From positions 620,001-684,000 of the forward strand of contig MU004239.1 of assembly GCA_010405405.1 (NCBI GenBank): a DNA stretch of 64,000 nt. Direction: 5' to 3'. The notes under the pieces were generated by a model. The model did no database searches. It was not told the origin of the DNA and was given only the letters and a program-made list of their open reading frames with translations. Source of the DNA: Microthyrium microscopicum. Taxonomy: Eukaryota. Below, piece after piece: positions 468 through 17,639 of this stretch (position 1 is its first letter; each line of letters starts with the position of its first letter). The translations under genes and the position numbers were made by a program.

Positions 468-1106
468 TCTTGACATATAGAGTCAGGAGGTAATATGCTT
501 GGGAAGATGAATTGTATATGAAGATATATGGAGAGAATGTGGAGATAATTGTGTGGATTTTGCAGCATAGCGATTGGGTTTGGATCTGGAGGAATTCTCG
601 ATTTTGGCATAGTTTGTGACTCGACTTGATAGTCAGTCCTTGTTTGATGAATGAATGATATTCTACCTTTTTGTTGGACTTTATGGCTATGGCCTATGTG
701 TTCTTGGAAACTCTTGACTTAGTATGACCTCAATAATAGCAGCAGATCCAAATGCGTAAGGTGGTTTCGGCCGTGGTTTCAATGCCAGTACGACTATTAA
801 TTGAAGTGCTAGTGATTTGATAATCTTGCCTAGCTTTTATATCGTCAACAACGGAGAGTCTAGCATACTGAAGCAAATAGAATAGCAGACGCGGCCTCTG
901 ACCTTATAGCCATATTTGACAACGACGATGATGGCCAGCCCCATATAACCCCTATGGGCGGAAAATTATATATTCAATGTGCACTGTCAACTGCCCTATT
1001 TCTAATTAATGCGGAGGTTTTATCACCAGGTACAACTAAGACAATACATAATAGCAATAGCAAAGCTCCTTTCTATAATTCCTAAAGTGTTTTCTACTCT
1101 CCCAAA

Positions 1107-1871
1107 ATGTTCTTCAACGCAGCCATTCTCGCACTTTCACTCCTTCCCTTCTCCCACGCCCAAGTAAAGGACGATTTCGAAAAGGGTTTGGACGCAGCAG
1201 CATGGCCCATCTACGCACCAGACTGTAATCAAGGCGGAAAAGTCACTCTCGACAGCACAACTGCTCACAGCGGGAAGAACTCTGTTCGAGTGAACGGAGC
1301 AGGTGGATTCTGTGGCCACATTTTCTTCGGTACGACAAAAGTGCCGTCTGGAGATGTCTACGTTCGAGCCTGGATGTAAGTAATAATGAGCGAATATGCT
1401 GCAGGACTAATTCGTGTCTTCTTCAGTAAATCATCCAAAGCCTTCACAGACTCCCACGTAACATTCATAACCATGACAGACGCCGCCCAACCCGCCAAAA
1501 AACACCTCCGCATCGGCGGCCAATCGAAAATCCTCATGTATAACCGCGAATCCGACGATGCCACCCTGCCCAATCTCTCGCCCCAAGGAATTGCTGCGTC
1601 CGCTGCGCTTCCGGCGAATACATGGAAGTGCTTTGAATATCATTTGGGTGCCGATGGCAGTATTGAGACTTGGTTGGATGGCAAGGTTATTCCGGGGTTG
1701 ACGGTTAAGAATGGTGCGGCGAATGCGAATGCGGATCAGTGGAAGAGGGGTGGGTATAAGCCGAAGGTTACGGGCATTTATTTTGGGTGGGAGTCGTATG
1801 GGGGTGATACTAATACGTTTTGGTATGATGATATTAGTGTTGGGTCGACGAGGGCTGGTTGTGATAAGTAA
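1107..1871 (+). CDS. cip1: Cellulose-induced protein Cip1, secreted core domain, no CBM
   Basis: Signal peptide, then QVKDDFEKG..WPIYAPDCNQGGKVTLD..CGHIFFGTT..HLRIGGQS..YNRESDDATLP..FGWESYGGDTNTFWYDD, colinear with Trichoderma Cip1. Intron 1376-1426 (GTAAGT..CTAAT..CAG) joins the two ORFs in frame. Confidence 0.92.
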
Positions 1872-2387: not shown

Positions 2388-2903
2388 CTAATCGTACAGC
2401 TCGTCTTCCAGTTCATCCAAGGCCTGGCCACAGTGCCAATCCGCCTCTCTATTGCGATTGCGAGGTATGTGCTCATATTCCACGTTGGAATGACCCATAT
2501 TGTCCCAATTCATCAGCCTGTCGTCAAGATTCAGTGCTTGTTCAATGAGATCTCGATTCGCGACTCGATAGCCTCTTGCGTTCCGCCAGCCGTTGTCGTA
2601 CCAAATGTTAGGCCAGTCAGTCAAACAATGAACTGCATAGCTAGAATCAGAACTGATTTTGACGTAGATGGACCGGTAGCCTCGTTGTCGAGCGATCTCC
2701 AAGGCTTGCTCTTGGGCCATGATGATGGCCGTGAGTTCCGCCCGTTGATTTGTGGGAGTGGGATGGTCTGGTAGAATTCTTGTCCATGCTGGGTTTGGTT
2801 GGTTCTGGCGCTGCTCGTAGACGCAGGCGGCGGAGGCTATGGCTGCGGTCGTGCCATTGTGACGACAGGCTCCATCGACTGAGAAGTTCATTCGGTAAGG
2901 CAT
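2388..2903 (-). CDS. Standalone RNase H1-fold protein, copy 1 (171 aa), catalytic D-E-D-D intact
   Basis: Motifs FSVDGAC, NQRAELTA, SSDSSYA, WYDNGW, NRDLI, IPRNRNREAD. The start is placed at MPYRM (2903) by analogy to copy 2 and because 2963-2910 looks like a 5'UTR intron. Confidence 0.9.
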   Translation of the reverse strand: MPYRMNFSVDGACRHNGTTAAIASAACVYEQRQNQPNPAWTRILPDHPTPTNQRAELTAIIMAQEQALEIARQRGYRSIYVKISSDSSYAVHCLTDWPNIWYDNGWRNARGYRVANRDLIEQALNLDDRLMNWDNMGHSNVEYEHIPRNRNREADWHCGQALDELEDELYD

Positions 2904-3443
2904 TCTCTTCTGATCCATCATCCGTTTAGCAACGATTCTGATTTCTTTGCGTACTGAACTTACCTAGACAGACCCTAGAATGAGCCGTTGTCTTTTAGGA
3001 TACAAGTTGAAGCTTGGGAGATGATTCTGGAGAACAAAGTTGATGGTTTGGAGTACAAAGGAGGGAGAAAAGAGAAGATGACGAATTCATGGCCAGCAGC
3101 TCGAACAGAAGGTGCGAAGCATCGGTAAGCAGCAGTGACTTTGCCATGAAGAAAGAGCCCGAGGAGAGAATAGAAGCCTCAACCAAGTCGTTCCATCTGA
3201 CAGAAGGTGCGGTCCACCAGTCGACAAAATACATAGCGCGTTCCAATAGACTCCTTTGGCCCCAATCCGCTACATTCTGTTATCGACTATGTTATTGGCC
3301 ATCTAGTACGTAGAGATAATTGTTAGATATCGAAAACGATTGGACTTAGAAAGTATGCTCTTTACAAGATACGGTGGCAGACATCGCACTTTATGGGAGT
3401 ATGCTATTGATATTAGAGGTATAGAAGAGAAACATGGCGAAGC

Positions 3444-3926
3444 CTACTGCTCATCAAGGGCGTCGTTGCAATACTCATCCGCCAGCTCATTCTGACTGCG
3501 AGGAACCCAAATGTATTCGACATCGCCAAGCTCATTGAGTCTGTCATCGAGATCAGATGCTTCCTCGATAAGATCTCGGTTGCACACCTCGTAGCCTCTC
3601 GAATTGCACCAGCCGTTATTAGCCCATGTGTAGATCCATCGTGTTAGGCAGCCAACCGCATATCTGGAATCGGAGTAGATTCTAATGTCAAGATCTGGGC
3701 TACCATTCAATTCGTCAAACTTTTCCAAGGCCTGCTCCTGGGCCATGATGATTGCGGTGATTTCCGCGCGTTGGTTGGTTGGAGTAGGATAGCTCGGTAG
3801 ATGACGGGTCCAAGAGTCGTGGCCTCCGTGGTACTTCTTGTGGACACACGCGGCAGCACCTATGGCCCATTCTGTGCCATTGCCACGGCAGCCTCCATCG
3901 ACCCAAAGATCCATGCGATACGGCAT
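3444..3926 (-). CDS. Standalone RNase H1-fold protein, copy 2 (160 aa), catalytic D-E-D-D intact
   Basis: Motifs LWVDGGC, NQRAEITA, YSDSRYA, WANNGW, NRDLI, WVPRSQNELAD. Confidence 0.92.
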   Translation of the reverse strand: MPYRMDLWVDGGCRGNGTEWAIGAAACVHKKYHGGHDSWTRHLPSYPTPTNQRAEITAIIMAQEQALEKFDELNGSPDLDIRIYSDSRYAVGCLTRWIYTWANNGWCNSRGYEVCNRDLIEEASDLDDRLNELGDVEYIWVPRSQNELADEYCNDALDEQ

Positions 3927-4896
3927 TTCGGGATTCAGGATATGTCCAACGGATTGGTGTGGGCTGGCGAAGTGATTGGAGGGAGTCTGGTGCGGCGAAC
4001 AGAAGCTAATTTAAACTACCTCTTGCTTAGTATGCAACTAATCATCTCAAGAGCGGCTTACCTAGAAATTACCTAGCGCTTAATTGATTCGTGTATTTTT
4101 ATGTTCGAATTGCCGCAGGCTCATCAAGAGTGGTAGTAAGGCTGGGGCGTGATGCTGGCAACAAAAGTTGATGGTGCTTGTGGAGGAGGAATCTTGTGGT
4201 AGCGAAGATGAATATGAAGGGAAGGGTAATAGTTTGGAAGAAAAATGGAGCCTGCAAAGAGCCGAAAGGTGGCAGTGACCTTGCCGTCACCTCCAAGCGT
4301 TCAGAACTTACCCAAAAGGGCAATCAAAGCTCCAATCAAAAGAGGCTATCCGACGGGAGGTGGTTGATGTATTTCTTTAGCACAAAACCGGATAGTTACA
4401 TGAGTTGCCAGTGAAATGGCGGATGTGGTTTCATATTCAAAGCATGGATAGATGAGAAGCCTTGAAGAGTATCAGAGGTTTGGAAGCAAACCATCAACAT
4501 GCTTTATACTTTGGAGGTGGCATCTGGCGTTCTCAAATTGACTCAAGACAGAGTTAGTGCGCCTATTTTCCATCTCTTGTATAAATATCTCTCTAATATC
4601 TGATATCGGTTATTATATCTGTACATCGAAAGCGAAGCCAATTGGAGAGGATCGATAAGCCCAACGTAGTGATAAGGGAGGCGGCTTGGTGCAAAAACCA
4701 TCTATCCGATGGCGGTTTGGAGACATGTTAACACGTCAACGATGCCAGCTCCAGTCAGGACTTCGGAAAGCGATGGTATTGCTACCACACCCGCTTCATG
4801 CGTGTGTTTGACTCTGTCGATTTTGTGATCAAGAGCGTGCCCAAGAGTGATGCAGCGCACTTATTAAGCTCGCGCTCCTGTTGGTGATGAATCGGC

Positions 4897-6839
4897 TTAT
4901 AGTTCTTCTACTTCCAGCAGCTTTTTGACCGCGGATAGCTTGCGGCTGCATATCTCGCGAGTATGCTGGTTTTGCTCAGGGGTGACCAACCTGTAGTCAA
5001 CCTTGCCTACCCTCCCAATCCGCCCGTCCAGTTCTCCTGCTTCTTCGATGAGATCTCGATGTACTACGGGATCGCCAGTTGTATGTAACCAACCGCTAGC
5101 CCTGTACCTGGCAATGCAATCGCCAATTTGGCACATGTAGCCCATGGCGAATGTAGATGTCGTATTGATTCGCACTCTGATGGTTGAGTCTGAGTCCACT
5201 CCTCCATTGATGTCAAGAGCTGTCTGCTGAGCTAGGATGATGGCCCTGAAAGCTGCGCGGTCCAAGTTAGGAGAGGGACTATGTGGCAAGATCCGACTAA
5301 AGACGATAGATTCTCCAAGTATGGTTCTGCGGACGCAAAGGGCGATGCCTGTGCAGCTGGACGAGCCGTGGTGAATGTACCCGCTCTGGACCCATAACTC
5401 CGCGTAATGCTCTTGACGATGTACAAATTTTCTTGAGATTGACTTGGTGATAGGCGGGATTTTCGGCGGCGAAAGAACAGTGTTGATGTTTGAAGTCGAA
5501 GGGGAATCGGCTAAGGTAGAGCTGTTGCTGTTGTTCTCGTCGGCTCTCTGACCAGAATTAATGAAAAGGTCAGACCTAGAAGTTGTTAGTATAGAATCAT
5601 GATCGGTGCTAACACGCTTAAAAAAGACAATTCGGTCTTTTCACCGTAAGCACATGAAACGCCCATCGCATTTGATTTTTTGTTCCACGGATGTTGTCAA
5701 GAAATGTGATTTGGCACAGGGAAATCTTACCGATCCATCACACTCGTGTCATCTTGATTCGGCTTCCTTCTTACTTTGGAAACTGCTGACCTTTTCAAGT
5801 CTTCAGGGTTTCTCTGAATTTCTAGCTTCTTCACGTCTTCTGGCTGCTTAGGGATCTTTGAAATCTCCTGCCGTTCCGAAAATTTCTGTCCTGCTTCCTC
5901 CTCCTCTTTCTCCTCTTCCGAATCGTCCGAACCTTCCGAATCTTCCGAGGTATCCATTTGATCCAAGTGCTCTGGCACATTGATCTTCTTCGGTTCATTG
6001 ATCTTCTCCGGTACATTGATCTTCTCCGGTACATTGATCTTCTTCGGTTCATTGATCTTCTCCGGTACATTGATCTTCTCCGGTACATTGATCTTCTCCG
6101 GTACATTGATCTTCTCCGGTTCATTGATCTTCTCCGGTACATTGATCTTCTCCGGTACATTGATCTTCTCCGGTACATTGATCTTCTCCGGTACATTGAG
6201 TTTCTCTGCCATATTGCTGCGCTCGGGTGGATTGATCTCTTTGGGTTGATTGAGCTGCTCTGATGTGTTGGATTCACCTTCTAGATCCGAGTCCTCATAT
6301 TCCTCCATCTCTTCATCTTCATCCTGGCTTTCCGGCTCAATAAAATGGCCTAGTTTCGTGTTTAGGTCTTCCTCTCTCTCCAATTGATTCAACTTGGCCC
6401 TACACGAAATATCAGGAATTGTGTTTTGGTGGCGCGGGATCCACTTGTAATTAATCTGGCTCCCTGGAAGACCCTTTATCTCGCGATCAAGTATGTTCGC
6501 CACATCCAGCAAATCGCGGTTTGTCTCCAGGTGCAAACTTGACCCATTCATAGCTCTGATGGTGCTTTTGCAGTCCGACCGAATAGTTACTGAAAGCCTC
6601 CCTTTTGCTTGCAGGCCATTGTAAATCTCAAGAGCCTTCTTTTGAGCTATGATCAGGGCCGTGATTTCAGCACGGGTGCTAGTGGGCCTGGGTTGACTGG
6701 GCAAGACGCTCATCCATTGATCACGGGGATGTTTTCCTGGCTTGGTCTGAACACAAACGGCGACGGCTTTTCTTCGATGTCCTTCGGTGTATGGTCGATA
6801 GCCACCGTCGACGCTGAAGTTGAGGGTAGTTTGTTGCAT
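4897..6839 (-). CDS. Predicted two-domain RNase H-fold protein (~595 aa): domain A with acidic tetrad, acidic/hexapeptide-repeat linker, catalytically dead domain B
   Basis: Exon 1 is 6839-5731 and exon 2 is 5575-4897. Intron 5730-5576 has donor CG|GTAAG, branch CTAAC and acceptor TAG|G, with matching phase 2, and the frame is open from 5575 to 4897. Domain A: FSVDGG / TRAEITA / RSDCK / IPRHQNTIPD. Domain B: LWVQSG / DRAAFRA / NTTSTF / TPEQNQHTR. Confidence 0.72.
5973..6206 (-). repeat. Coding minisatellite, 13 x 18 bp, encoding (E/K)K(I/L)N(V/E)P
   Basis: The plus-strand unit attgatcttctccggtac and its variants repeat in tandem. Translation gives 13 hexapeptide units. Confidence 0.97.
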
Positions 6840-7503
6840 TTTGTCATCCAGCGAGCCACACAACTCTCCGCATGGGCGTAGGGCCCAAGTTCGATTCAGT
6901 TGGTTAGCGATAGTATTGGTGGCTGCTCAATGGCAGGTTGCTCCGTAAGACCAAGTCGTGCTCTGAACCTGTCGTATGAAGTAGAAACCGAAAGAGTCGT
7001 GCGGCTTAAGAAACGGAGAGGTTAGAGTATCGCATTTAACTGTGGGTTCAATGCAATGTCCAAGAAGAGTAGCCAATCACCCTATATTCGCATGTCAAGG
7101 GAACCCTGAGCTCTTCTTAAGATCCGTTCGAGAGATACGTTGTAAGCAAACAACTGAGCATGATGACTTCTAGTCTCTGCAGACCACCAGAAATACAAGG
7201 TAGGTATGTATACCTTCAAGTATAACGACAGGAAATACGACTAGACTTAGAATGCGGAGAATGCGTAACGTGCCTTGGCCTTGGGTGTACGATGTCTACA
7301 AGGTAGGAGGTATTCAATGGCTGCGTGGATGGAGAGGGACTTGTAAGGCTGTATGACAAGATCTTTGTGTGGGATGTAATATGCGATAGATTCCAAAAAA
7401 CGAATGTTATCAAGTTCAATGGCTGTCGTAAAAGTAATGATTACCTAGACATGGTAGAGAGTGCATTTGAAACTTGATGGGACCTAAGAAGTCAAGTGCC
7501 CCT

Positions 7504-7600
7504 ATTTGTTGGGTGTAGAATTATTTTCATCTTATGCACAGGCCTTTTTGAAGGACTATCCCTAACTACCTATACCATAATGAGATTAAAATAGTAAATT
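7504..7600 (+). repeat. Left terminal inverted repeat (~97 bp)
   Basis: Pairs with 16452-16550. It may extend about 10 bp further out (aagtgcccct versus aagtacctttgg). Confidence 0.85.
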
Positions 7601-8319
7601 AATTACTACTCGCTATTTACTATATTATATATATTAAAAGTATAAGTGCTATATTCCTTATAGTATATTATATTATTAGGAGCTTAAAAACTATAGCTTT
7701 CTTTACTAGTTACTAAGTAGATATACTAAACTATTATTTTGTTGCCTTAGATTCTTAGCCTAATCTACCTCTATATATAGTACTTACTATAATAATTACT
7801 TCTTCTATCTTAATTTTAACTATTAGAACTAATACTATTATAGATTCTTATATTATAGCTACGCGTTAAATATAAACTTAAGTATATTAACTAGGTAGGA
7901 TATATATTAATATAACTTACTATATTTACGCTATTATATATCTTAAGTATAACTAGACTAAAATAAGAATTATTAAGAAGATATACTATTTAACGTAAAT
8001 AATTAGGTATTAGAAATATAATATAAGGAAATATAAGTCTATATAGAAACTATAGATACTACTATATAGAACGCTTTTATAACTTAAACTAGTAGATAAG
8101 AATACTTTATTATAATATTTTTTATTATATAGCTAGTAATTATAAGCTAAAATAGTTTACTAGCTAGAGTAAGAGCATAATATATTAGTAGATAGATTTA
8201 TAATATCTAGAATACTTAAGAAAAGAGGATAGAAAATAAAAGCTATTATATAATTATTACTAAATAAGAGTAAAGAGCTTTATACTATATACTACTAAGA
8301 TTTATTATAGTTTAAAGCT

Positions 8320-8790
8320 TAAGATTTAGTCTTTCTAGATAAGTCTATCTTTAAAGAGTAGAATAGCTAAAGACTATATATATATATATTTATAGGTTAA
8401 CTCTTATAATAGATATAGAATATAAATTATAGAAAGATATATATAATTCTAGCTATTATAATACTTAATAGGTATTTTTCTTATACTAGATTTTAAGAAA
8501 AGTATTATAATGTAGAGGACTTCTATAATTAGATTAGGATATANNNNNNNNNNNNNNNNNNNNNNNNNNNNNNNNNNNNNNNNNNNNNNNNNNNNNNNNN
8601 NNNNNNNNNNNNNNNNNNNNNNNNNNNNNNNNNNNNNNNNNNNNNNNNNNNNNTTAGTTTATACTAATTTAGGTATAGAATAGCTATTAAAGAATATAGG
8701 CTTTATTATTTACTATCTACTACTCTACTCTTTTAATTTTAATCTAATAGAGTTAATGTTTAGTATTCTTAAGGCCTAGATAAAAAGGAA
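8320..8790 (+). pseudogene. RIP-inactivated IS630-Tc1-mariner (DDE_3-type) transposase catalytic region
   Basis: Translation gives DLVFLDKSIF (~8324; de-RIP LVFLDESIF), YYNVEDFYN*I (~8504) and YLLLYSFNFNLIELMFSILKA*IKR (from 8714; de-RIP YLPPYSPDFNPIE.FS.LKAWIKR). The second catalytic Asp would fall in the N gap. Full gene limits are unknown. Confidence 0.85.
8544..8653. other. Assembly gap (110 N)
   Basis: Run of N. The transposase motifs on either side are colinear and consistent with a gap of roughly this size. Confidence 0.99.
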
Positions 8791-9570
8791 TTAGGTATAT
8801 AAATAGTAAAATTTTAGGAACTTTATGTCTTTCTTAGAGTATATAGTTATAGCTAGTAGCTATAATTGCTTTATAGTTAGATAGTTTAGATATACTATTA
8901 AGAATTTATATTATAAAGGAATAAATATATATACGTATTATAAGTTCCTTTAGGAATATAAGATATAAAGTATAGTAGAGCTTTATTAATAAAATAATTA
9001 GTTATTACGTTATAAAGGAAATATTTAGGGTAATATAGATACTACTAGGTAATTTATATATTATAATTATAGGATATTAATATTATATAGTAGTTTAGTT
9101 TATTTTATATTTTATAAACTAATTATTAAATAGTACTTTACTATTCTTTATCTTTCTATTCCTATTCTTACTAGCTATTCTATACTAGTAAGTAGTTTTT
9201 ATTTACCTCTACGTATAGTAAGTATAAATAAGGACTATTAACTAGCACTTTCTATATAGTTTCTTAGTCTATTTAGATAAAAGAAGTTAACTACTATATT
9301 AGAGTCCTAATAAAACTTCTTATTATCTTAGATATAAGGCTAGCAAGCTAGGGCCTTTGCTTCTATATACTTTAGTAATATATAAAGAATATAGAAGTAA
9401 AGGTATAGAAGTTAGAGTCCTATATAAAGGATAGTATTTTTTAATATAGTAGAAACGCGTATTAGTAAGGAGAGAGTCTTAAGAATCTTATTACTATTTT
9501 TAGATAGTAATAATCTAATAGTAGTAAAGTCCTAGCTCTTTTAGTATTTCTTTTAAAATAGTAAGCTAAT

Positions 9571-10016
9571 AGAGCCTAATCTCTTATAGTATTTCTTTAG
9601 AAAAGTAAACTAGTAGAGTTTTAGTAAATAAACTAAAGAGATAGAAAGAATATATATTAGATAGTAGCTTAACCTAAATAAATTAGAGAAATTAAGGAAA
9701 TATATATTAGATAGTAGCTTAATCTATAATTTATAGAAATAATATAAAGATAGTACTCTATAAGAAATAAAGTTTTATAGCTCTAAGTCTTAAAGCTAAA
9801 TTAGAGTTAATTTAGTAAGCTATAAAGTATAGAGTCCTAACTCTCTTAATAATATTATTAAAAGAATATACGCTAGAGGGTAGCTTAATCTAAATAAACT
9901 AAAGAAATTAAGAGAATATATACTAGAGAGTAACTTAACCTAAATAGATTAAAGAGATTAAGGGAATATACGCTAGAAAGTAGCTTAACTTATAGTTTAT
10001 AGGTATAATATAAAGG
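9571..10016. repeat. 50-bp tandem repeats (clusters of 2 and 3) within a ~260-bp direct duplication, inside the RIPed element
   Basis: Units such as gaatatacgctagagggtagcttaatctaaataaactaaagaaattaaga start near 9650, 9700, 9864, 9914 and 9964. The leader agag(t)cctaa(c)tctctta occurs at both 9571 and 9831. Confidence 0.8.
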
Positions 10017-13000
10017 TAAACTATTAGAGGAGTTAAAATCCTATTTAGATCCTAGTTATTATTAAATTATAGTAGATTGCTAGAGCTAGTAATATAACGT
10101 TATAAAAAGGGACTTATTAATAGTATAGATACTAAAGGATAAGTTATTCTAAATAAAAAGATAATAGAATAGAAATAATAAACTAGCGCTAACCTAAGTA
10201 ATAAAGTAATATATTAGTAAAGATAAGTATTAAATAAGAAAGATAAAGAAGTACTAAAGAATAGTAAATAAAGGATAAATTTTATACTTTTCCTATACTA
10301 AGTAATACTAGATTAGGATATATTTATTATAATTAGCCTTTATATTTATACTATATACTAATAAGTAATTTATTAGTAGTAGTAAAGTACTAGTATCTAA
10401 GAATAGACTTATATAACTTTAGTATTAAGACTAGAGTAAAGAACTTACTAATAAGAAGATAAATAGTAAGAATATATTACTTAGTATTAAGAGAGAGAAT
10501 AGTAAATACCTAATTTGCTATAGCTAAAGTTATATAGTATTTAAGTATTAAGGAAGAGAAGTTAAGAACTATTAATAGTATTATATAAAGCTATTATCTA
10601 TACTAGCCTTAACGTTAATAATATAATTTATTAGTAATATAAGATAATATTACTAAGAATATAGATACTAAGAAGAGAACTACTAGCTACTTATAGTATA
10701 TAATATTATTATGTATATTAAATTAATAGAATATACTATACTAAGAGATAAAGTTACTATATAATTATAAGTATAAAGTAAGTATAGTATATTAAGAATA
10801 GCTAATAATAAGATTATATTTAGGGATAAAGTTTAATAGTTATAAAGCTTTAGGTAATAGTAAGGTATATAGGTAATTATAATGTAGGTAATAAGGGATA
10901 ATTATTAGCTATTTATAAATATATCTTTATAAAGTTATAACCTTAGTAGTTAAAGATATTAATATACTATATTAATCTAGATAATATATATTATAAGCAT
11001 TTTTAAAGAAGATATTTAGTTTTTACTAAAATCTAGGAGTAGTATACTACTCTTTAGTTATAATTAATATACTAATTTTTTATATATTTCTATTTAGCTT
11101 TACTATATATTAACTATAATATATATCTTATTTATATTTACTATTTATAGTTTGTATAAATGCTTTAAATAACTTTATCTTTATTTTATTAAATAATATA
11201 AAATATTAGGTAAATAGTAGCTTAGTATTAAATCTACTAAAAAATTAGGCTATATTATCTTACTATTTACTTCTTTAATATTATAAGACTTTATAATTTT
11301 ACTATAAAATTATAAAATCTAAGAGATTATACTAAGTACTATCTTCTAGCTAATATTATATATACTAGTATATAAATCTTAAGTATATTATTACTTACTT
11401 ATTATAATTAACCTAATAGGTTAATCTTTACTAGTCTATTACTATAGATAGTTATTATTACTTACTAATTATTCTTATTAGTATATCTAAATATAATATT
11501 AATTCTTTCTTACTATAGTTATAATATAGTATAAGATTATATCTTTAAATCTTTATATTATTAACTATAATAGTAGCTCTACTTTATCTACTTATTATAA
11601 TTTATAATATCTTTCTTATTGCTATCCTAACTATTATAGTTATCTTAATCTTATAGGCCTTACTACTATAATTAGGTATTAGGTTATACTAAAGATACTA
11701 ATATAGAGAGTTTAATACTTTAGCCTATGTTTAATTATAAGTAATAGTAACCCTTTATTAGTAAGTTCTCTTTATTATATTCTTATTATAACTTTTTAAA
11801 ATATAGTAAGTAATAGTATTTATATATTCTAATGCTTATAAAGTCTTATTTATTCTTAGTTCTTTCTATTACTTCTATAAACTACTTTATATATAATATT
11901 TATTAAGAACTCTTCTATAATACTTTATATTTTACTTCTATACTTTTCTATATTATTAACTACTCTAATACTTACTTTATTTACTCTATTTACTCTTTAT
12001 AATCTTAAATTATCTTATTATAGTTAATCTATAAGTTCCTAATTCTTAGCACGATTCTCTAGGTTTTTAAGCTTAATGCTACTAATTAGCTCTTAATATA
12101 ATCTTTAGCTTTAAAAGCTATAGTAATATCCCTAATACTAGTAATAGCTTAACTAGTATTTACCCTTTTATTTTATACCTTAATAGCGCTATTAGTAGTA
12201 CTATAGGATTTTATTACTATAAGCCTAATAGCTTATATATTATAATAATTAATCCTTCTAATCCTATTATCTATTACTTACTTTATTAAATTGTAATAAA
12301 CTCTAATATAAGTTAATATTTCTATTATCTTTATATATTACTAAGTTATAGATAGGATCTATAGATTATTACTAATATAGACTACTCTCTAGTTAATATA
12401 TAGGTTTAAGACTTACTACTAATTAATACTAGATATACTATATATAAGATAATAATTACCTATAGTGCTTAATTCTCTAAAAAGATGCTACTTAACTAGA
12501 ACTCCTTTACTTCTCTAAATATATAAGAATTTCCTATTATAGTACTCTTTTTCTACTATATTACTTAACTACATTATTATAATACTTAATACTTAGATTA
12601 TCTTTCTATAGATAGTACTTAACTTTATCTAATAACTTATACTTATAATTATAACTAGCTAGATCTATATAAATATATAAGCTATTTTAACTACTAAAAA
12701 GAATTATACTCTAATTATATTTTTTATAATTAACTTATAACCTACTTTCTCTATAATACTAATGCTAATTCTTAAGTCTTTCTACTTTTTACTCTAGTAT
12801 AGCGCCTATGTCTTACCCTCTTCTTTATAACTCTTTATAACCTTTATTAACTTTTATAATATAATTAAGCGTTCTAAAGGCTTAGATATAGGAATTTAAT
12901 ATTATTTAACCTTCTTACTTTATATAAATAACTTCTTACTAATAGTTTTAATTATTAAAGGGTAGTAATAGGATCATAGTATTATTTAATATTTTTGCTT

Positions 13001-16000
13001 TATAAAAATAGCTTCTTACAAATAGTTTTAGAATAGGGAATAGTAGTAATAGAAATAGACTAGATATTAGTAGTTAATTATTTCTAAAATTATTATTTAC
13101 TTAAATTTATAGTTATAGATAGGATATTTAAGAGTAGTTTTTAATTATAACTAATATTAAACTACTAATACTATAATAAATAATTTAATTTTCTAAATCT
13201 TTTCTATGCTAGTTAAAAGCGTTATTTTTAATAAGTAATAAAAGAAATAATTATAAGATATATTATAAATACAAAATAGTAAAAGTAAAATAAAAAATAG
13301 GAAAATATATAATAATAAATATAACTTTAGTAGAATTCTAATAAATTAATTACTTATAAATTAATAAGGATAGGCTTAAGTTAGTAAAAAGATACCCTCT
13401 TATTCTATTATTAACTACTACGCCTACTACTTACCTAGAACCTATTAACTTACTAAGTAATGCTTCCTAAAAGCAGAACTATCTTCTTTATTATTAGGTA
13501 CGCTAACCTCTTAATTAGTAGGCTATTTCCTAATAACCTAGTCCTTAAAATACTTAATAACGCTAGGGATTTATACTATTATTAACTCCTAAACTTTTAC
13601 CTTTATTAACGTATAGTAAATAGGATTACTATTCTAAGTATTCTCTACCTCTAAAGTAAGAATATCTATATTATACTAGTCTATTACTCCTTAAGTTGCT
13701 TCCTAATCTCTATTAGTACTAACTAGCTTAAACTAAGTAATATAGAAAAAGAATAATTATATAGTATTAACTATTTTTAGTACTAGAGATAATATATATA
13801 GTTTAGTACGTAGGGATATAAAAGATATTATAATAGGACTTAATCTAATTTTAATAACTAGGCCCTTATTAGTAATAGATAGTTACTTTTATAAAAAAGT
13901 AGTTTAGCGCTCTAAAGTAATAGCTTTTATTAGAGTAACTACTAAAGCTTTATGTTACCTTTTTATAGTATTTTTAGAACTACGTTCTAGTAAGGTAGTT
14001 TAAACTTATGGCTATAGTAGATGTTTTTAATAAGGTCTAGAAACTAAGATAAAAGAAGGACTTAATATTATAGTATAAGATACTATATTAATATATGTTT
14101 CTAAATTATTTTAAATAAATAAAGATAAAGCTTATAGCAAGACTTATAAAACTATTAATAATAAGTAATTATAATAACCCTAAAGAAGTTAAAACTAAGG
14201 ATAATTTAATAAAGAAGAAAAGGCCTAAAGATATATAAATTGTTAATAGGCTTACTATAAAGGAGCATATATTTATAAAGATCTATAATAAGGAATACTA
14301 GAAGGATATATAAACTAAGGGTAGCTTATTAATAATAACTAAATAGGTAGCTACTAAAAAGCTAAAGCTACTTCTCTATTGTCTTATTTTTAATTATAAC
14401 GCCTATTATAATGTCTCTTTTATGTCTTATACCTATTAGACTTACGTTTATCTTATGTAGCCTACTTATTAGCTTTCTTATTTTTATATTTAATTTACTT
14501 CTTCTTTATATCTAGCTCTAGATAATTAATCTCTTACTAATAATTATAGTATTCCTTATTAGCTTTAGCCTTCTCTTATGTAGCTTCTCTCTTATATTTA
14601 ATAGCCTCTAGCCTTATCTACTTTATAATAGTCTCTAGTTCTTACTAGCAAATACTTAACGTAAATATCTTACCTTATAGTCCTTTAGTACTATGAGTAT
14701 CTATAGTTATAAGAGGACTACTAATTATAAGCTAGATATTCTAAAAATATATAAAAATCTTTATAGGTAGATTCTTAGTAAAAGCTTTACTACTATTAAT
14801 AGCGTTATACTACGTTTATTACTAAGGACTACTTATAATAAAATGCTACTTATTAAAATCCTTAAAGTAGTAGTAACCTTTATTAGGATAATAGTCTTAA
14901 GTATAAGAGTTATATAATAAGATAGTAGTAAGATTATCTTTCTTCTTAGAGTTATCTTTACTATCTAGTAGATATTTATTAATAAGCTTATTCTACTATT
15001 ATAATAGAAAACAAGTATTATCTTTAATATTTATAGTAGAAACTACTTTAGTAGATAGCTTTAGTTAAATTACTAGCTATAGCTTAATAGTAATAAAATA
15101 TATACTTTCTTTTAACTAATTTATATAATAATATTAATCTAACGCCTAGATCTATAGCTTAAAGATATTAGTATTAAAGCTAGGCTTTATAGAGTCTTTT
15201 ATCGTACTAGTAACTTTAAGATAGTTAGATCTCTATTAAATAGTTATAGTCTTAGTATTATATTCTTACTCTATAGTATACTTCTCTATAAAGATATACT
15301 ACTTCTTAATTACTATAGTACTAAAATCCTACTATATAATACTATTAATAGTATTCTTATATATTATTAAACTTCTTATATTAGTACTAGGCTTAATTTT
15401 ATAGAACTTTATATAAAGGTTAATAGTATAATTAACTAGAGCTAAGAATATATTGCTAGTATTAAGATTAATAGCGTCTAATTCTAATATAGATTTATTA
15501 ATTTTGCTATACTTCTTCTAGCCCTTAATAAACATTTTTTATAGTATCTTAAGATTAGCTTTCTTCTTCTTTTTAAAGAACCTTAGTAGATTATTTATTT
15601 TCTTCTTTATAAGTTCTAGCAGGTTATTAGAATCTATAGGTTCTTTACCTATTAAATTTTTAACTTTACTACCTAATTTATCTTTACTATTCTCTTTATC
15701 CTCTTTATTCTCTTTATTCTTAAGCTTTTTCTTATTATTTTTATTAGACTCTTGCTAGCTATTAGTATAGCTAGTATTAAATACTATATATTTAGCTTTA
15801 GTCTAAGCTAATTTTACTATATTTTATTTATTTACTACTATTATTATTAAGTAGCTATACTCTTACTACTAAATAATCCTCTTCTTACTTTTAGAATCTT
15901 TCTATATAATAGACTTTATTAAAGATTTTATCTTATTCTTTACTAATAAAGTTTTTAGTGTAAATTTAACTTTTAACTTAGGTAGTACTATTTTTTTAGC

Positions 16001-16451
16001 TTTTAAAGTAGATTTAAACTTAGTCTTACGTTCTTTATGCTTAATTTCTTCCTATTACTTTTACTTATATCTATATAGTTAACTATTAGCTATAATATTA
16101 TAAAAATAAGTAAGAAACCCTTATTAAACTTAAATAAAAATAGATAAGAAGAGTAAGAAATATATACTAACTAAGCTTAGCTTTATATTTTAGTTAGTTA
16201 GTATTAAGTACTAGGGTATTATTGTCCTAGCCTATGTAAATATTATACTTTTTTTTAGCTCTATTATTTAGGCTTTAAAGATTTTTAGTAGGTTCTTATA
16301 GTATTTACTAAAGAGTAGAGAATTAAGTATGCTTTATAGTAGTAATAGGCTTAGATAGTATACTTTCTAGATAAAAAGATATAGATTTATAAGTAGATTA
16401 TAACGATATAGGTTTATATATAAACTTTATAATAGATAGTAAGTAATCTTA

Positions 16452-16550
16452 AATTTACTATCTTGATCTTAAATTATGATATAGGTAGTTAGGGATATTT
16501 TTTTTAAAAGGCCTATGCACGACCTAAAAATAATTCTGCACCCAACAAAT
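16452..16550 (-). repeat. Right terminal inverted repeat (~99 bp)
   Basis: Reverse complement aligns to 7504-7600, with mainly transition mismatches and small indels. Confidence 0.85.
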
Positions 16551-17639
16551 CCAAAGGTACTTAGAAGGCGTTTTTACTCCCCAAAGAGGAATAGCGCGCA
16601 AAAGAGTAAAAGTCGTTTTTACTAAGTAAAATCGACTTGCACTCCACTTTTACTTCTCGTCCTAACCTACGATTAACCTATTTTAGAATAGTGCTATAGT
16701 TGAGTTAACGTTAGAGTTATTTAATTAGATGTTAAAGGGCTATATTCCTATTCTTCTTAATAGTTATGCCCTTTAAATCTATATATAAAGATACTAAGAA
16801 CCTAGAATACTTAATTAATACGCACGTATTTAGACATATTTAGCGTATATTTTGGCTTCTTTTTGGCTTCAGGGCGTAGATTATTAATGGAAATATCGCA
16901 AAGTTATGGCACAAAAACGTTCACAGGGGCAATTACTATGAGGGCAGTTTCTGCGGTTTAATATCAGAAGATGTCAGGGGCTAGGCTAATTCCAGCGTAG
17001 ATCTACAGTGAAAATCCGCAGTAAATATGGAGTCGAAATCTCAGGAATTTCACACCCGACCCTCTCCAATCAAGCGTCGTTATCATTATGGATGGCAGTG
17101 TCTATACTCATGATGATCATACAGTTCAGTTTGACCACAGAGCAGTGACCACCAAGAACAGAGCAATCGAACTTCATGTACAGTTTCTCATCTTTTGCGT
17201 AAAAACGTAGGAACTTAAATATGGCAAATACTTTTCCCACTCAAGCAATGGATAGCCGTATATTGAGGCCGAGGCATGCTTCCGTTTCTAAAAATAAGCA
17301 CTGCAGTGCCACAACGCAACAACATCTGAGGCCTCTTTTGAACCACCAGGCGCGGCGATCGACATTTTGGATTGGCGCCACCCGTAAATCGACCACTAAG
17401 AAGTAGGTTATGATGAACACAAGACGAACTGAGGTCGTGCCCAGTCGCGCTATGAACGAATGAATAACACAAACCGCTTCCAAAGGACCATACTTCGTAT
17501 CCCTTGCAGTATAAAAAGCTCTACCATCATCGGGAAAATATACTGCCTACTGAAAACTCGATATCTCCTAGTCGAGGACAGACAGCTCAACAACTCGACC
17601 ACAGACGATACCAAATCACCTCGCTACGTCCTACGAAAC

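What the first reader, a model, noticed from the sequence alone, without database searches (positions are those of the whole stretch)
4897..6839. Hidden splice fuses complementary half-functional RNase H domains: catalytic head without binding protrusion, dead head with it
Seen: the ORF track splits this into two ORFs. The 6839 ORF ends at ATG GAT CG|GTAAG, and a CTAAC..TAG|G acceptor at 5576 continues in phase into a frame open to 4897. Domain A keeps all four acidic residues (VDGG, RAE, SDC, IPD) but has 17 residues between SD and NRDL, versus 29 in copy 2, so it has lost the WxxNGW segment. Domain B has lost all four (D>Q, E>A, D>T, D>R) but keeps that segment (ARYRASGWLHTTGDPVVHRDL). Established: this protrusion contributes to hybrid binding in E. 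coli-type RNase HI. Inference: division of labour in one chain, with the dead domain serving as the substrate-binding module or as a decoy/inhibitor of the neighbouring active paralogs.
Basis: partly seen in the sequence, partly recalled or inferred. Interest (0 to 1): 0.8.

Follow-up and report, generated by a model that had tools for sequence, protein, structure and literature searches.

The report
Fungal two-headed RNase H gene
A fungal gene joins, through one overlooked intron, an intact RNase H domain to a conserved but catalytically dead copy of the same fold, an arrangement known from retroviruses but not from stand-alone cellular RNases H.

Summary
On the minus strand, exon 1 (6839..5731) and exon 2 (5575..4897) are joined by removing a 155-nt GT..AG intron (5730..5576). 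A contig in a public run, identical to the window everywhere else, skips exactly these bases. The product is 595 aa. It consists of domain A, a linker of about 260 aa with 12 hexapeptide repeats, and domain B.

Both domains fold as type-1 RNase H (pLDDT 93.6 and 94.6). A keeps D-E-D-D but lacks helix C and the basic protrusion. B reads Q-A-T-R at those four positions and keeps the protrusion.

The same architecture occurs twice in Microthyrium microscopicum. B is at least as conserved as A there (46% against 43% identity), so it is not decaying. T and R at positions 3 and 4 are shared by all three B domains.

The "two half-functional domains" reading is only partly supported:
- A resembles protrusion-less archaeal-type RNases HI and is very basic (pI 9.7).
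- B is near neutral.
- One paralog is not complementary.
- A-B docking has only weak support (0.45 against 0.02).

The closest analogue is the retroviral tether-RNase H pair. No public protein found contains exon 2.

The parts
5731..6839 (-). Exon 1 (1109 nt, 369 codons plus 2 bases): start ATG at 6839, domain A, acidic linker and hexapeptide repeats
   Evidence: The contigs of run X1 cover it, broken only inside the repeat.
6360..6839 (-). Domain A (residues 1-160): RNase H fold, D-E-D-D intact, helix C and basic protrusion deleted, pI 9.67
   Evidence: AF2 pLDDT 93.6 with no helix between H91-97 and H105-122. Foldseek top hit 3aly, TM 0.73/0.83. BLASTP to copy 2 E 2e-24. Alignments. Pfam gives only RVT_3 at 19.7 bits, below the 21.6 cut-off.
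5977..6199 (-). Tandem repeat of 18 nt, 12.4 copies, 95% matches. It encodes (P-E-K-I-N-V/E)n inside the linker.
   Evidence: translation. The run's contigs break here.
5576..5730 (-). Intron of 155 nt: GTAAGA...TACTAAC...TAG, GC 0.39. An in-frame TAA sits at its positions 2-4, so an unspliced message would end after 370 aa.
   Evidence: A contig of run X1 skips it exactly (table 5).
4897..5575 (-). Exon 2 (679 nt, stop at 4897-4899): about 50 aa of Ser/Asn/Pro-rich linker, then domain B
   Evidence: The same contig that carries the last 278 nt of exon 1 covers it.
4900..5424 (-). Domain B (175 aa): RNase HI fold with helix C and protrusion. Catalytic positions read Q-A-T-R. pI 7.2.
   Evidence: AF2 pLDDT 94.6 with H100-109 present. 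Foldseek top hits are E. coli RNase HI, TM 0.62/0.70. BLASTP to copy 2 E 1e-29 and to P0008 E 1e-54. No Pfam or PDB sequence hit.
3444..3926 (-). Paralog 'copy 2' (160 aa): canonical single-domain RNase H, D-E-D-D plus protrusion, pI 4.5
   Evidence: Pfam RNase_H 5.8e-19. Human RNase H1 1.8e-9. The exact sequence is present in public protein sets.
2388..2921 (-). Paralog 'copy 3' (177 aa from the first ATG; the public model P0042 is 171 aa): canonical single-domain RNase H
   Evidence: Pfam RNase_H 2.6e-14. P0042 is identical over 163 columns.

Best explanation
A single two-exon gene (6839..4897, minus strand) of an ascomycete fungus encodes a 595-aa 'dual RNase H'.

The three parts:
- The N-terminal domain A is a strongly basic type-1 RNase H with the full D-E-D-D metal site. 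It has lost helix C and the basic protrusion, so it looks like the archaeal-type stand-alone enzymes.
- A linker of about 260 residues follows. It is low-complexity and net-acidic, and it contains a young hexapeptide repeat.
- The C-terminal domain B is a paralogous RNase HI fold. It can no longer bind catalytic metal (T and R at acidic positions 3 and 4 in all three known B domains) but keeps helix C and the protrusion. It is held under purifying selection.

Proposed mechanism:
- A does the cutting of RNA in RNA/DNA hybrids.
- B is a non-catalytic accessory acting in cis on the same chain. Most probably it anchors or positions nucleic acid through the retained protrusion. This would mirror the hybrid-binding domain of eukaryotic RNase H1 and the degenerate RNase H ('connection/tether') domain of retroviral RT.

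Shown: the splice, the two folds, the residue states, and conservation of the architecture.
Inferred: A's activity, any nucleic-acid binding by B, and the cooperation between them.

My odds: real fused gene 0.93; B functional and non-catalytic 0.85; B acts in cis on A's substrate handling 0.45. The confidence given for this explanation is that of the last, weakest step.
For: The splice:
- A spliced contig in run X1 removes exactly 5576..5730 with GT..AG ends and has 0 other differences over 3001 bases.
- The frame statistics exclude chance, and B has no start codon of its own.

The folds:
- A and B fold as RNase H with pLDDT 93.6 and 94.6.
- B matches E. coli RNase HI. A matches protrusion-less RNases HI.
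- Both are paralogs of the neighbouring canonical genes (E 2e-24 and 1e-29), which pass Pfam RNase_H.

Conservation of the architecture:
- It recurs in M. microscopicum proteins P0008 (541 aa) and P0009 (480 aa), which lie on one contig.
- A matches A at 43% identity (68/158) and B matches B at 46% (97/212). The linker does not align.
- In an 84-row tree the three A domains form one group (SH-aLRT 95) and the three B domains another (86). The fusion and B's inactivation therefore predate the split of the two fungi.
- All three B domains share T and R at positions 3 and 4.
- The protrusion deletion occurs in only 2 of 78 aligned family rows, win_A and P0008-A.

Precedent for a protrusion-less RNase H being served by a second module: PMC3443672 (passages) and PMC4408406 (passages).
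Against: - No activity or binding was measured.
- A is the basic domain (net +8), while B is neutral (net 0).
- The window's B lost the TNQ motif before the catalytic Glu, and two of the three aromatic protrusion positions differ from the canonical W...W..NGW.
- A's nearest structural relatives are stand-alone enzymes, and Halobacterium RNase HI among them is reported active without a protrusion. A may therefore need no helper.
- Paralog P0009 keeps the protrusion in A and has H at position 4. Complementarity is thus not a rule of the subfamily.
- Loss of tetrad residues is common in this fungal family. Of 61 single-domain rows with all four columns filled, only 30 read D-E-D-D. Those rows were gathered with the dead domain as query, which may bias the count.
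- Run X1 is RNA only by guess, and its contig runs on about 3.2 kb beyond 4300, across the neighbouring genes.
- The repeat breaks the contigs, so no single record links domain A to domain B.
Confidence: 0.45

Rival explanations
1. B is a protein-binding pseudoenzyme rather than a nucleic-acid binder. It docks on A as a pseudo-dimer that switches A on or off, or it docks on the canonical single-domain paralogs or other partners. The acidic linker acts as spacer or autoinhibitor.
For: - B is not basic, whereas A is.
- B's substrate-contact motif is degenerate in the window.
- Dead RNase H domains do act as platforms in UvrC (PMC10085695, passages).
- Dead paralogs can activate enzymes (PMC5201418, abstract seen in the listing).
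Against: - The feature most strictly kept in B is helix C plus the G-W loop. W112 is invariant in 29 aligned rows. In RNase HI this is a nucleic-acid contact.
- A linker of about 260 aa is not needed for a fixed pseudo-dimer.
Confidence: 0.3
2. The whole protein has left RNase H chemistry. This fungal family often loses tetrad residues, and A-B may serve a non-nuclease role, for example nucleic-acid sensing or chromatin binding next to repeat-rich DNA.
For: - Only 30 of 61 complete single-domain rows keep D-E-D-D.
- A and B are too divergent for Pfam RNase_H or for PDB sequence hits.
- The gene borders a 9.5-kb block of 17-28% GC.
Against: - A keeps all four acidic residues in the window and in P0008 despite long branches. 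That argues for selection on catalysis.
- The 61 rows were collected with a dead domain as query.
Confidence: 0.12
3. B is a decaying remnant of a tandem duplicate that is merely read through or spliced on, with no function.
For: - All four catalytic residues are lost in the window.
- No Pfam hit.
- No public protein model holding it was found.
Against: - The 247-codon frame is open.
- B is 46% identical to the M. microscopicum ortholog, more than A, and its tree path is shorter.
- It gives a confident fold.
- The C-terminal LLEVEEL and the N-terminal FVHRQEHY are conserved.
Confidence: 0.04
4. The 155-nt skip in run X1 is a DNA deletion variant, or X1 is a DNA run, and not splicing. In that case the 370-aa ORF is the real product.
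For: - The run's kind is a guess.
- Its contigs also cover intergenic DNA from about 7496 to below 4300.
Against: - The skip has exact GT..AG ends and a TACTAAC branch box, and it restores the frame.
- There are 0 other differences in 3001 bases, so it is the same strain, yet no contig holds the intron.
- Annotated orthologs are fused proteins.
Confidence: 0.03

Closest known systems
Dual RNase H of retroviruses (tether/connection + RNase H) and of plant Tat LTR retrotransposons (gRNH-aRNH); PMC4408406, passages read
   Same: One chain carries two RNase H folds. One has a degenerated DEDD and is retained as a non-catalytic helper. In HIV-1 the active RNase H lacks the basic protrusion, and the connection domain supplies basic contacts (PMC3443672, passages).
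   Different: - Here there is no reverse transcriptase or other pol domain (Pfam).
- The order is active then dead, not dead then active.
- The two folds are separated by a disordered linker of about 260 aa, not adjacent.
- Both domains descend from cellular fungal paralogs next door.
- The dead domain keeps the protrusion.
Eukaryotic RNase H1 and Bacillus halodurans RNase H (hybrid-binding domain + linker + catalytic domain)
   Same: A catalytic RNase H is tethered by a flexible linker to a separate non-catalytic module. In B. halodurans that extra domain compensates for the missing C-helix (PMC3443672, passage).
   Different: - No HBD-type domain is present. The accessory is a dead RNase H fold.
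- It is C-terminal, not N-terminal.
- Binding of hybrids by B is not shown.
Protrusion-less stand-alone type-1 RNases H (S. tokodaii RNase HI 3aly/2ehg, LC11-RNase H1 3u3g/4h8k, Halobacterium RNase HI 4e19, Rv2228c N-domain 3hst)
   Same: These are the best structural matches of domain A (TM 0.69-0.73 on the query, 0.74-0.83 on the target). Like A they have the acidic tetrad, no helix C and no catalytic His.
   Different: - A reached this form by a deletion of about 12 residues inside a fungal family that otherwise has the protrusion (72 of 78 rows have the 29-residue segment).
- Sequence identity to these structures is about 20%.
- A is fused to domain B.
UvrC central inactive RNase H domain (PMC10085695, passages read)
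   Same: A cellular protein with one active and one inactive RNase H-like domain, the inactive one serving as a platform.
   Different: UvrC belongs to a different RNase H-like clade (DDH endonuclease), is a multi-domain repair enzyme, is bacterial, and its two domains are not recent paralogs.

Membership tests
Type-1 RNase H (RNase HI/H1; Pfam PF00075) - domain A | RNase H fold (five-stranded sheet flanked by helices) | tested here: met
   AF2 pLDDT 93.6. Foldseek found 252 PDB matches at E<=0.001, and the listed ones are RNases H or RT RNase H domains.
Type-1 RNase H (RNase HI/H1; Pfam PF00075) - domain A | Four acidic metal ligands (D-E-D-D) | tested here: met
   Reads D-E-D-D in the columns of copy 2's D10/E55/D86/D150. 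Copy 2's columns were tied to human RNase H1 by the HMMER alignment.
Type-1 RNase H (RNase HI/H1; Pfam PF00075) - domain A | Passes the curated Pfam score | tested here: not met
   No PF00075 hit. RVT_3 scores 19.7 bits against a cut-off of 21.6. By PDB phmmer the only RNase H hit is 3hst at E 1.6. Homology rests on the paralogs (E 2e-24).
Type-1 RNase H (RNase HI/H1; Pfam PF00075) - domain A | [quoted passage not shown] | not testable with these tools
   Needs an enzyme assay.
E. coli-type RNase HI subtype (helix C + basic protrusion) | Helix C and the following loop are present | tested here: not met
   Domain A has 17 residues where 72 of 78 family rows have 29, and no helix C in the model. 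Domain B meets this feature (H100-109; segment of 32 residues).
Type-1 RNase H - domain B | RNase H fold | tested here: met
   AF2 pLDDT 94.6. Foldseek top hits are E. coli RNase HI at E 5e-9, TM 0.62/0.70. The ortholog's B domain passes Pfam RNase_H (P0008 residues 375-495).
Type-1 RNase H - domain B | Four acidic metal ligands | tested here: not met
   Reads Q-A-T-R in the window, E-E-T-R in P0008 and D-R-T-R in P0009. B is a fold member, not an enzyme member.
Retroelement dual RNase H (tether-RNH / gRNH-aRNH) | Embedded in a pol polyprotein next to a reverse transcriptase, with the dead domain directly upstream of the active one | tested here: not met
   No RT, integrase or protease domain in either exon (Pfam). 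The order is active-linker-dead. The tree places both domains with cellular fungal paralogs.
Eukaryotic RNase H1 (HBD-linker-catalytic) | N-terminal hybrid-binding domain | tested here: not met
   The protein starts 9 residues before strand 1 of domain A. No such Pfam domain was found.

The most novel reading that the evidence does not exclude
A cellular fungal RNase H has independently re-invented the retroviral 'tether + RNase H' solution. The active head deleted its own substrate-handle. A tethered dead paralog, whose metal site is filled by Thr/Arg, now supplies the handle. It may recognise a particular hybrid or R-loop structure. The nucleic-acid-mimicking acidic linker would keep the enzyme off until B engages. 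Because the gene sits beside a large AT-rich repeat relic, the target could be retroelement replication intermediates, making this a genome-defence nuclease.
Probability: 0.15. Interest if true: 0.75.

Novelty: new variant of a known kind. Interest (0 to 1): 0.5.

Why it matters
Active-plus-dead RNase H pairs in one chain are textbook for retroviral reverse transcriptase and were recently noted in UvrC. I found no description of one in a stand-alone cellular type-1 RNase H. Searches returned only retroviral, retrotransposon and UvrC cases. That covers only the open-access library searched.

- The case offers a simple, RT-free system for asking what a dead RNase H fold contributes to a live one.
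- It is a natural experiment on whether the basic protrusion can be supplied from another domain.
- It corrects a gene model. Public protein sets hold the neighbouring paralogs of this genome, but no protein containing exon 2 was found.
- The fungal family of small HBD-less RNases H also turns out to lose catalytic residues often, which deserves a survey.

Tried and rejected
- RNA evidence: the look-up of sequencing runs listed one holder, and no RNA holder is on record. The run is RNA by guess only.
- The search for homologous proteins with domain A (residues 1-160, proteins of 203-648 aa) found none. This word-index search also missed P0008, which is 43% identical, so the blank is uninformative.
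- Search with P0008 residues 340-541 found only P0008 itself.
- The metagenome scan with the B alignment gave 589 pattern matches, none confirmed by tblastn.
- No whole genome is held for the window. Paralog counts in the genome, and tblastn of fungal genomes, were therefore impossible.
- No fungal DNA of relatives could be fetched, so dN/dS and intron-position conservation were not computed.
- PDB sequence searches with A and B gave no usable RNase H hit.
- Complex prediction on A+B gave weak support. The median score was 0.45 and the best of 3 controls 0.02. The runs agree in at least 82% of contacts, and the partner's pLDDT is at least 83. By the tool's calibration the mark was reached by 51 of 78 solved complexes and 2 of 108 mismatched pairs. 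At 0.60 or under, however, it was reached by only 5 of those 78 solved complexes and by all 4 mismatches that passed. Such a pass is more often wrong than right without a strong prior. I do not count it as evidence.
- Earlier-findings look-ups returned nothing.
- The first script for the shuffle test timed out. It was rerun with 20000 shuffles.
- The first tetrad count used wrong column indices and was corrected.
- Rejected reading: the long antisense and alternative-frame ORFs over 5831..6280 are by-products of the 18-nt repeat.
Full report
**1. What is in the sequence**

All of the following lies on the minus strand. An ATG at 6839 opens a 370-codon ORF that stops at 5727. Its last bases read ATG GAT CG|GTAAGA. 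A TACTAAC box lies 10 nt before TAG|G at 5576. From 5575 a frame runs open to the stop at 4897-4899.

A script that joined the two exons in memory gave these figures:
- Exon 1 is 1109 nt, the intron 155 nt (GC 0.39) and exon 2 679 nt.
- The phase is kept, giving 595 codons plus one terminal stop.
- Of 20000 shuffles of exon 2, 0 keep the frame open. The analytic probability is 3.8e-5.
- The other two frames carry 9 and 5 stops.
- The first Met of the exon-2 product is residue 144 of 226.

The stop-to-stop frame of exon 2 is 247 codons. Domain B therefore cannot be made from an ATG of its own.

**2. Is the intron used?**

One public run holds the stretch (X1, share 0.86; its kind 'RNA' is a guess). 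Laid on 4300-7300, its contigs are identical to the window, with 0 other letters.

One 4740-nt contig skips 155 nt at 5573/5729. The ends are CT..AC, and the cut fits equally well 2 bases further on. No contig covers the interior of the intron.

Caveats:
- The run is not on record as RNA.
- The contig continues about 3.2 kb below 4300 across the neighbouring genes, and another contig starts near 7496. Contigs therefore merge several transcripts or low-level background.
- The 18-nt repeat breaks the assembly, so no single record links domain A to domain B.

Even so, a same-strain sequence that lacks precisely a GT..AG/TACTAAC unit and restores the frame is best explained by splicing.

**3. The two domains**

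The four RNase H-like units in 2388..6839 (copy 3, copy 2, B and A, all on the minus strand) align over their whole length.

Sequence evidence:
- Copies 2 and 3 pass Pfam RNase_H (5.8e-19 and 2.6e-14).
- Copy 2 aligns with human RNase H1 (1.8e-9). That alignment fixes the four acidic columns and the W..W..NGW protrusion.
- A and B are too divergent for Pfam or for PDB sequence searches.
- They are nevertheless clear paralogs of copy 2 (E 2e-24 and 1e-29) and of each other (2e-8).

Structure evidence:
- AlphaFold2, run with a 29-row alignment, gives confident RNase H folds: B pLDDT 94.6 and A pLDDT 93.6.
- B has helix C (H100-109), and its best PDB matches are E. coli RNase HI (TM 0.62/0.70).
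- A goes from H91-97 straight to H105-122. Its best matches are S. tokodaii RNase HI, LC11-RNase H1, Halobacterium RNase HI and the Rv2228c N-domain (TM 0.69-0.73 on the query, 0.74-0.83 on the target).

Residue states:
- A reads D-E-D-D, with 17 residues where 72 of 78 family rows have 29.
- B reads Q-A-T-R, with the segment kept at 32 residues.

**4. Relatives**

I ran an exhaustive HMMER search of 1.84 billion representatives with the exon-2 product. It gave 95 hits at E<=1e-3, 10 at <=1e-10 and 1 at <=1e-30.

- Only two hits share the A-linker-B architecture, P0008 (541 aa) and P0009 (480 aa). Both are Microthyrium microscopicum (Dothideomycetes) hypothetical proteins on one 2.5-Mb contig.
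- Window A against P0008-A is 43% identical (68/158, E 3e-33). Window B against P0008-B is 46% identical (97/212, E 1e-54). The linker does not align.
- In a quick ML tree of 84 rows the three A domains form one group (SH-aLRT 95) and the three B domains another (86). Both sit beside the window's canonical copies in a weakly supported set (88). The paths are B-B 1.05 and A-A 1.77.

Fusion and inactivation of B therefore predate the divergence of the two fungi, and B has since changed less than A. All three B domains have T and R at acidic positions 3 and 4, while positions 1 and 2 vary (Q/E/D and A/E/R).

P0009 breaks the 'complementary' pattern. Its A keeps the protrusion and reads D-E-D-H.

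An environmental ORF, P0085 (191 aa, on a 1342-nt contig), also has R at position 4. It may be a third B-type sequence. I did not follow this up.

**5. Annotation status**

The exact copy-2 protein is in public sets, and copy 3 appears as the 171-aa P0042. The genome therefore has public gene models.

By contrast:
- The 370-aa ORF is not in the collection.
- Neither the 'longer' word search nor the exhaustive search returned any protein holding the window's exon 2. The best hit is 40-46% identical.

The fused model seems to be missing from public protein sets.

**6. How it probably works**

Firm points: one mRNA and one 595-aa chain; A has everything a metal-dependent RNase H needs; B cannot bind the catalytic metals but is conserved.

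- HIV-1 RNase H has no protrusion and is inactive alone. Basic residues of the connection domain, itself a degenerate RNase H fold, do the job. B. halodurans RNase H lacks helix C and is compensated by an N-terminal hybrid-binding domain (PMC3443672, passages).
- Retroviruses and Tat retrotransposons independently evolved dual RNase H domains with one degenerated DEDD (PMC4408406, passages).
- In B, the G-W of the protrusion loop is the most strictly kept feature. W112 is invariant in 29 rows.

Arguments against it:
- Among A's nearest structural relatives, Halobacterium RNase HI lacks both the His and the protrusion yet is active (PMC9719913, passages).
- A is strongly basic in all three proteins (pI 9.5-9.8, net +8 to +13). 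B is near neutral (pI 5.8-7.7). The canonical copies are acidic (pI 4.5-5.5).
- The window's B has lost the TNQ motif next to the catalytic Glu.
- P0009 is not complementary.

The linker is about 260 aa in the window. Its net charge is -23 in the exon-1 part, -30 in P0009 and +5 in P0008. It carries 12.4 copies of an 18-nt repeat at 95% matches. It is a flexible tether, not a fixed hinge.

I therefore favour 'active head plus tethered non-catalytic accessory acting in cis' at about 0.45. A protein-docking or regulatory role for B stands at about 0.3.

**7. Context**

Loss of tetrad residues is frequent in this family of small, HBD-less fungal RNases H. Of 70 single-domain rows, 61 have all four columns filled, and only 30 of those read D-E-D-D. 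The rows were gathered with a dead query and a MAFFT auto alignment, so the figure is rough.

The protrusion deletion is rare: 2 of 78 rows, win_A and P0008-A.

The gene abuts a 9.5-kb block of 17-28% GC (about 7500-17000).

**8. Novelty and score**

Dual active/dead RNase H domains are known in retroviral RT and Tat elements and in UvrC (PMC10085695, passages).

A stand-alone cellular type-1 RNase H built this way did not turn up in my literature searches. Those searches cover only the open-access library. The features that set this case apart are the reversed domain order, the long disordered linker, a protrusion lost from the live head and kept in the dead one, and an origin from neighbouring paralogs.

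I rate it a new variant of a known kind, interest 0.5. The attractive mechanism is untested and only partly favoured by the data.

Noticed in passing
window 7500-17000: A block of about 9.5 kb with 17-28% GC lies directly upstream of the gene, and it holds no ORF of 90 aa or more. It looks like an AT-rich isochore or a mutated repeat relic. The RNase H cluster sits at its edge.
   Followed up: partly
window 2388-6839, minus strand: Four RNase H-type units lie head to tail on one strand: copy 3, copy 2, B and A. The canonical copies are acidic (pI 4.5-5.5) and A is basic (pI 9.7).
   Followed up: yes
window 5977-6199: An 18-nt tandem repeat (12.4 copies, 95% matches) encodes P-E-K-I-N-V/E hexapeptides. 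It breaks the run's contigs and creates spurious ORFs in other frames and on the + strand. Copy number may vary between strains.
   Followed up: partly
run X1 record 1, beyond window 4300 towards lower coordinates: The contig carrying the splice continues about 3.2 kb past 4300. If colinear, that takes it across copies 2 and 3 on the same strand. It may reflect overlapping or read-through transcripts, or background.
   Followed up: no
P0085 (library protein, 191 aa, ENA contig of 1342 nt): A single ORF with a B-like dead RNase H: D, S and R at acidic positions 2-4, an LIS..EN motif, and no strand 1. It may be exon 2 of a similar gene in an unsampled fungus.
   Followed up: partly
P0010 (448 aa, Protoblastenia rupestris MAG) and P0055 (491 aa): Other two-domain RNase H proteins in fungi. 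P0010 has two domains that both keep RAE, DS and AD motifs. P0055 is a duplicated N-terminal-domain + RNase H unit. Both differ from the A-B type and may be merged tandem genes.
   Followed up: no
window 1086-1871, plus strand: Two adjacent open frames (1086..1379 and 1380..1871) begin with a signal-peptide-like N-terminus. This is probably a secreted protein gene with a frame change or short intron near 1380.
   Followed up: no
family alignment: About half of the single-domain fungal relatives (31 of 61 complete rows) lack at least one of the four acidic residues. Pseudo-enzyme evolution seems common in this family. The count is biased by the dead query.
   Followed up: partly
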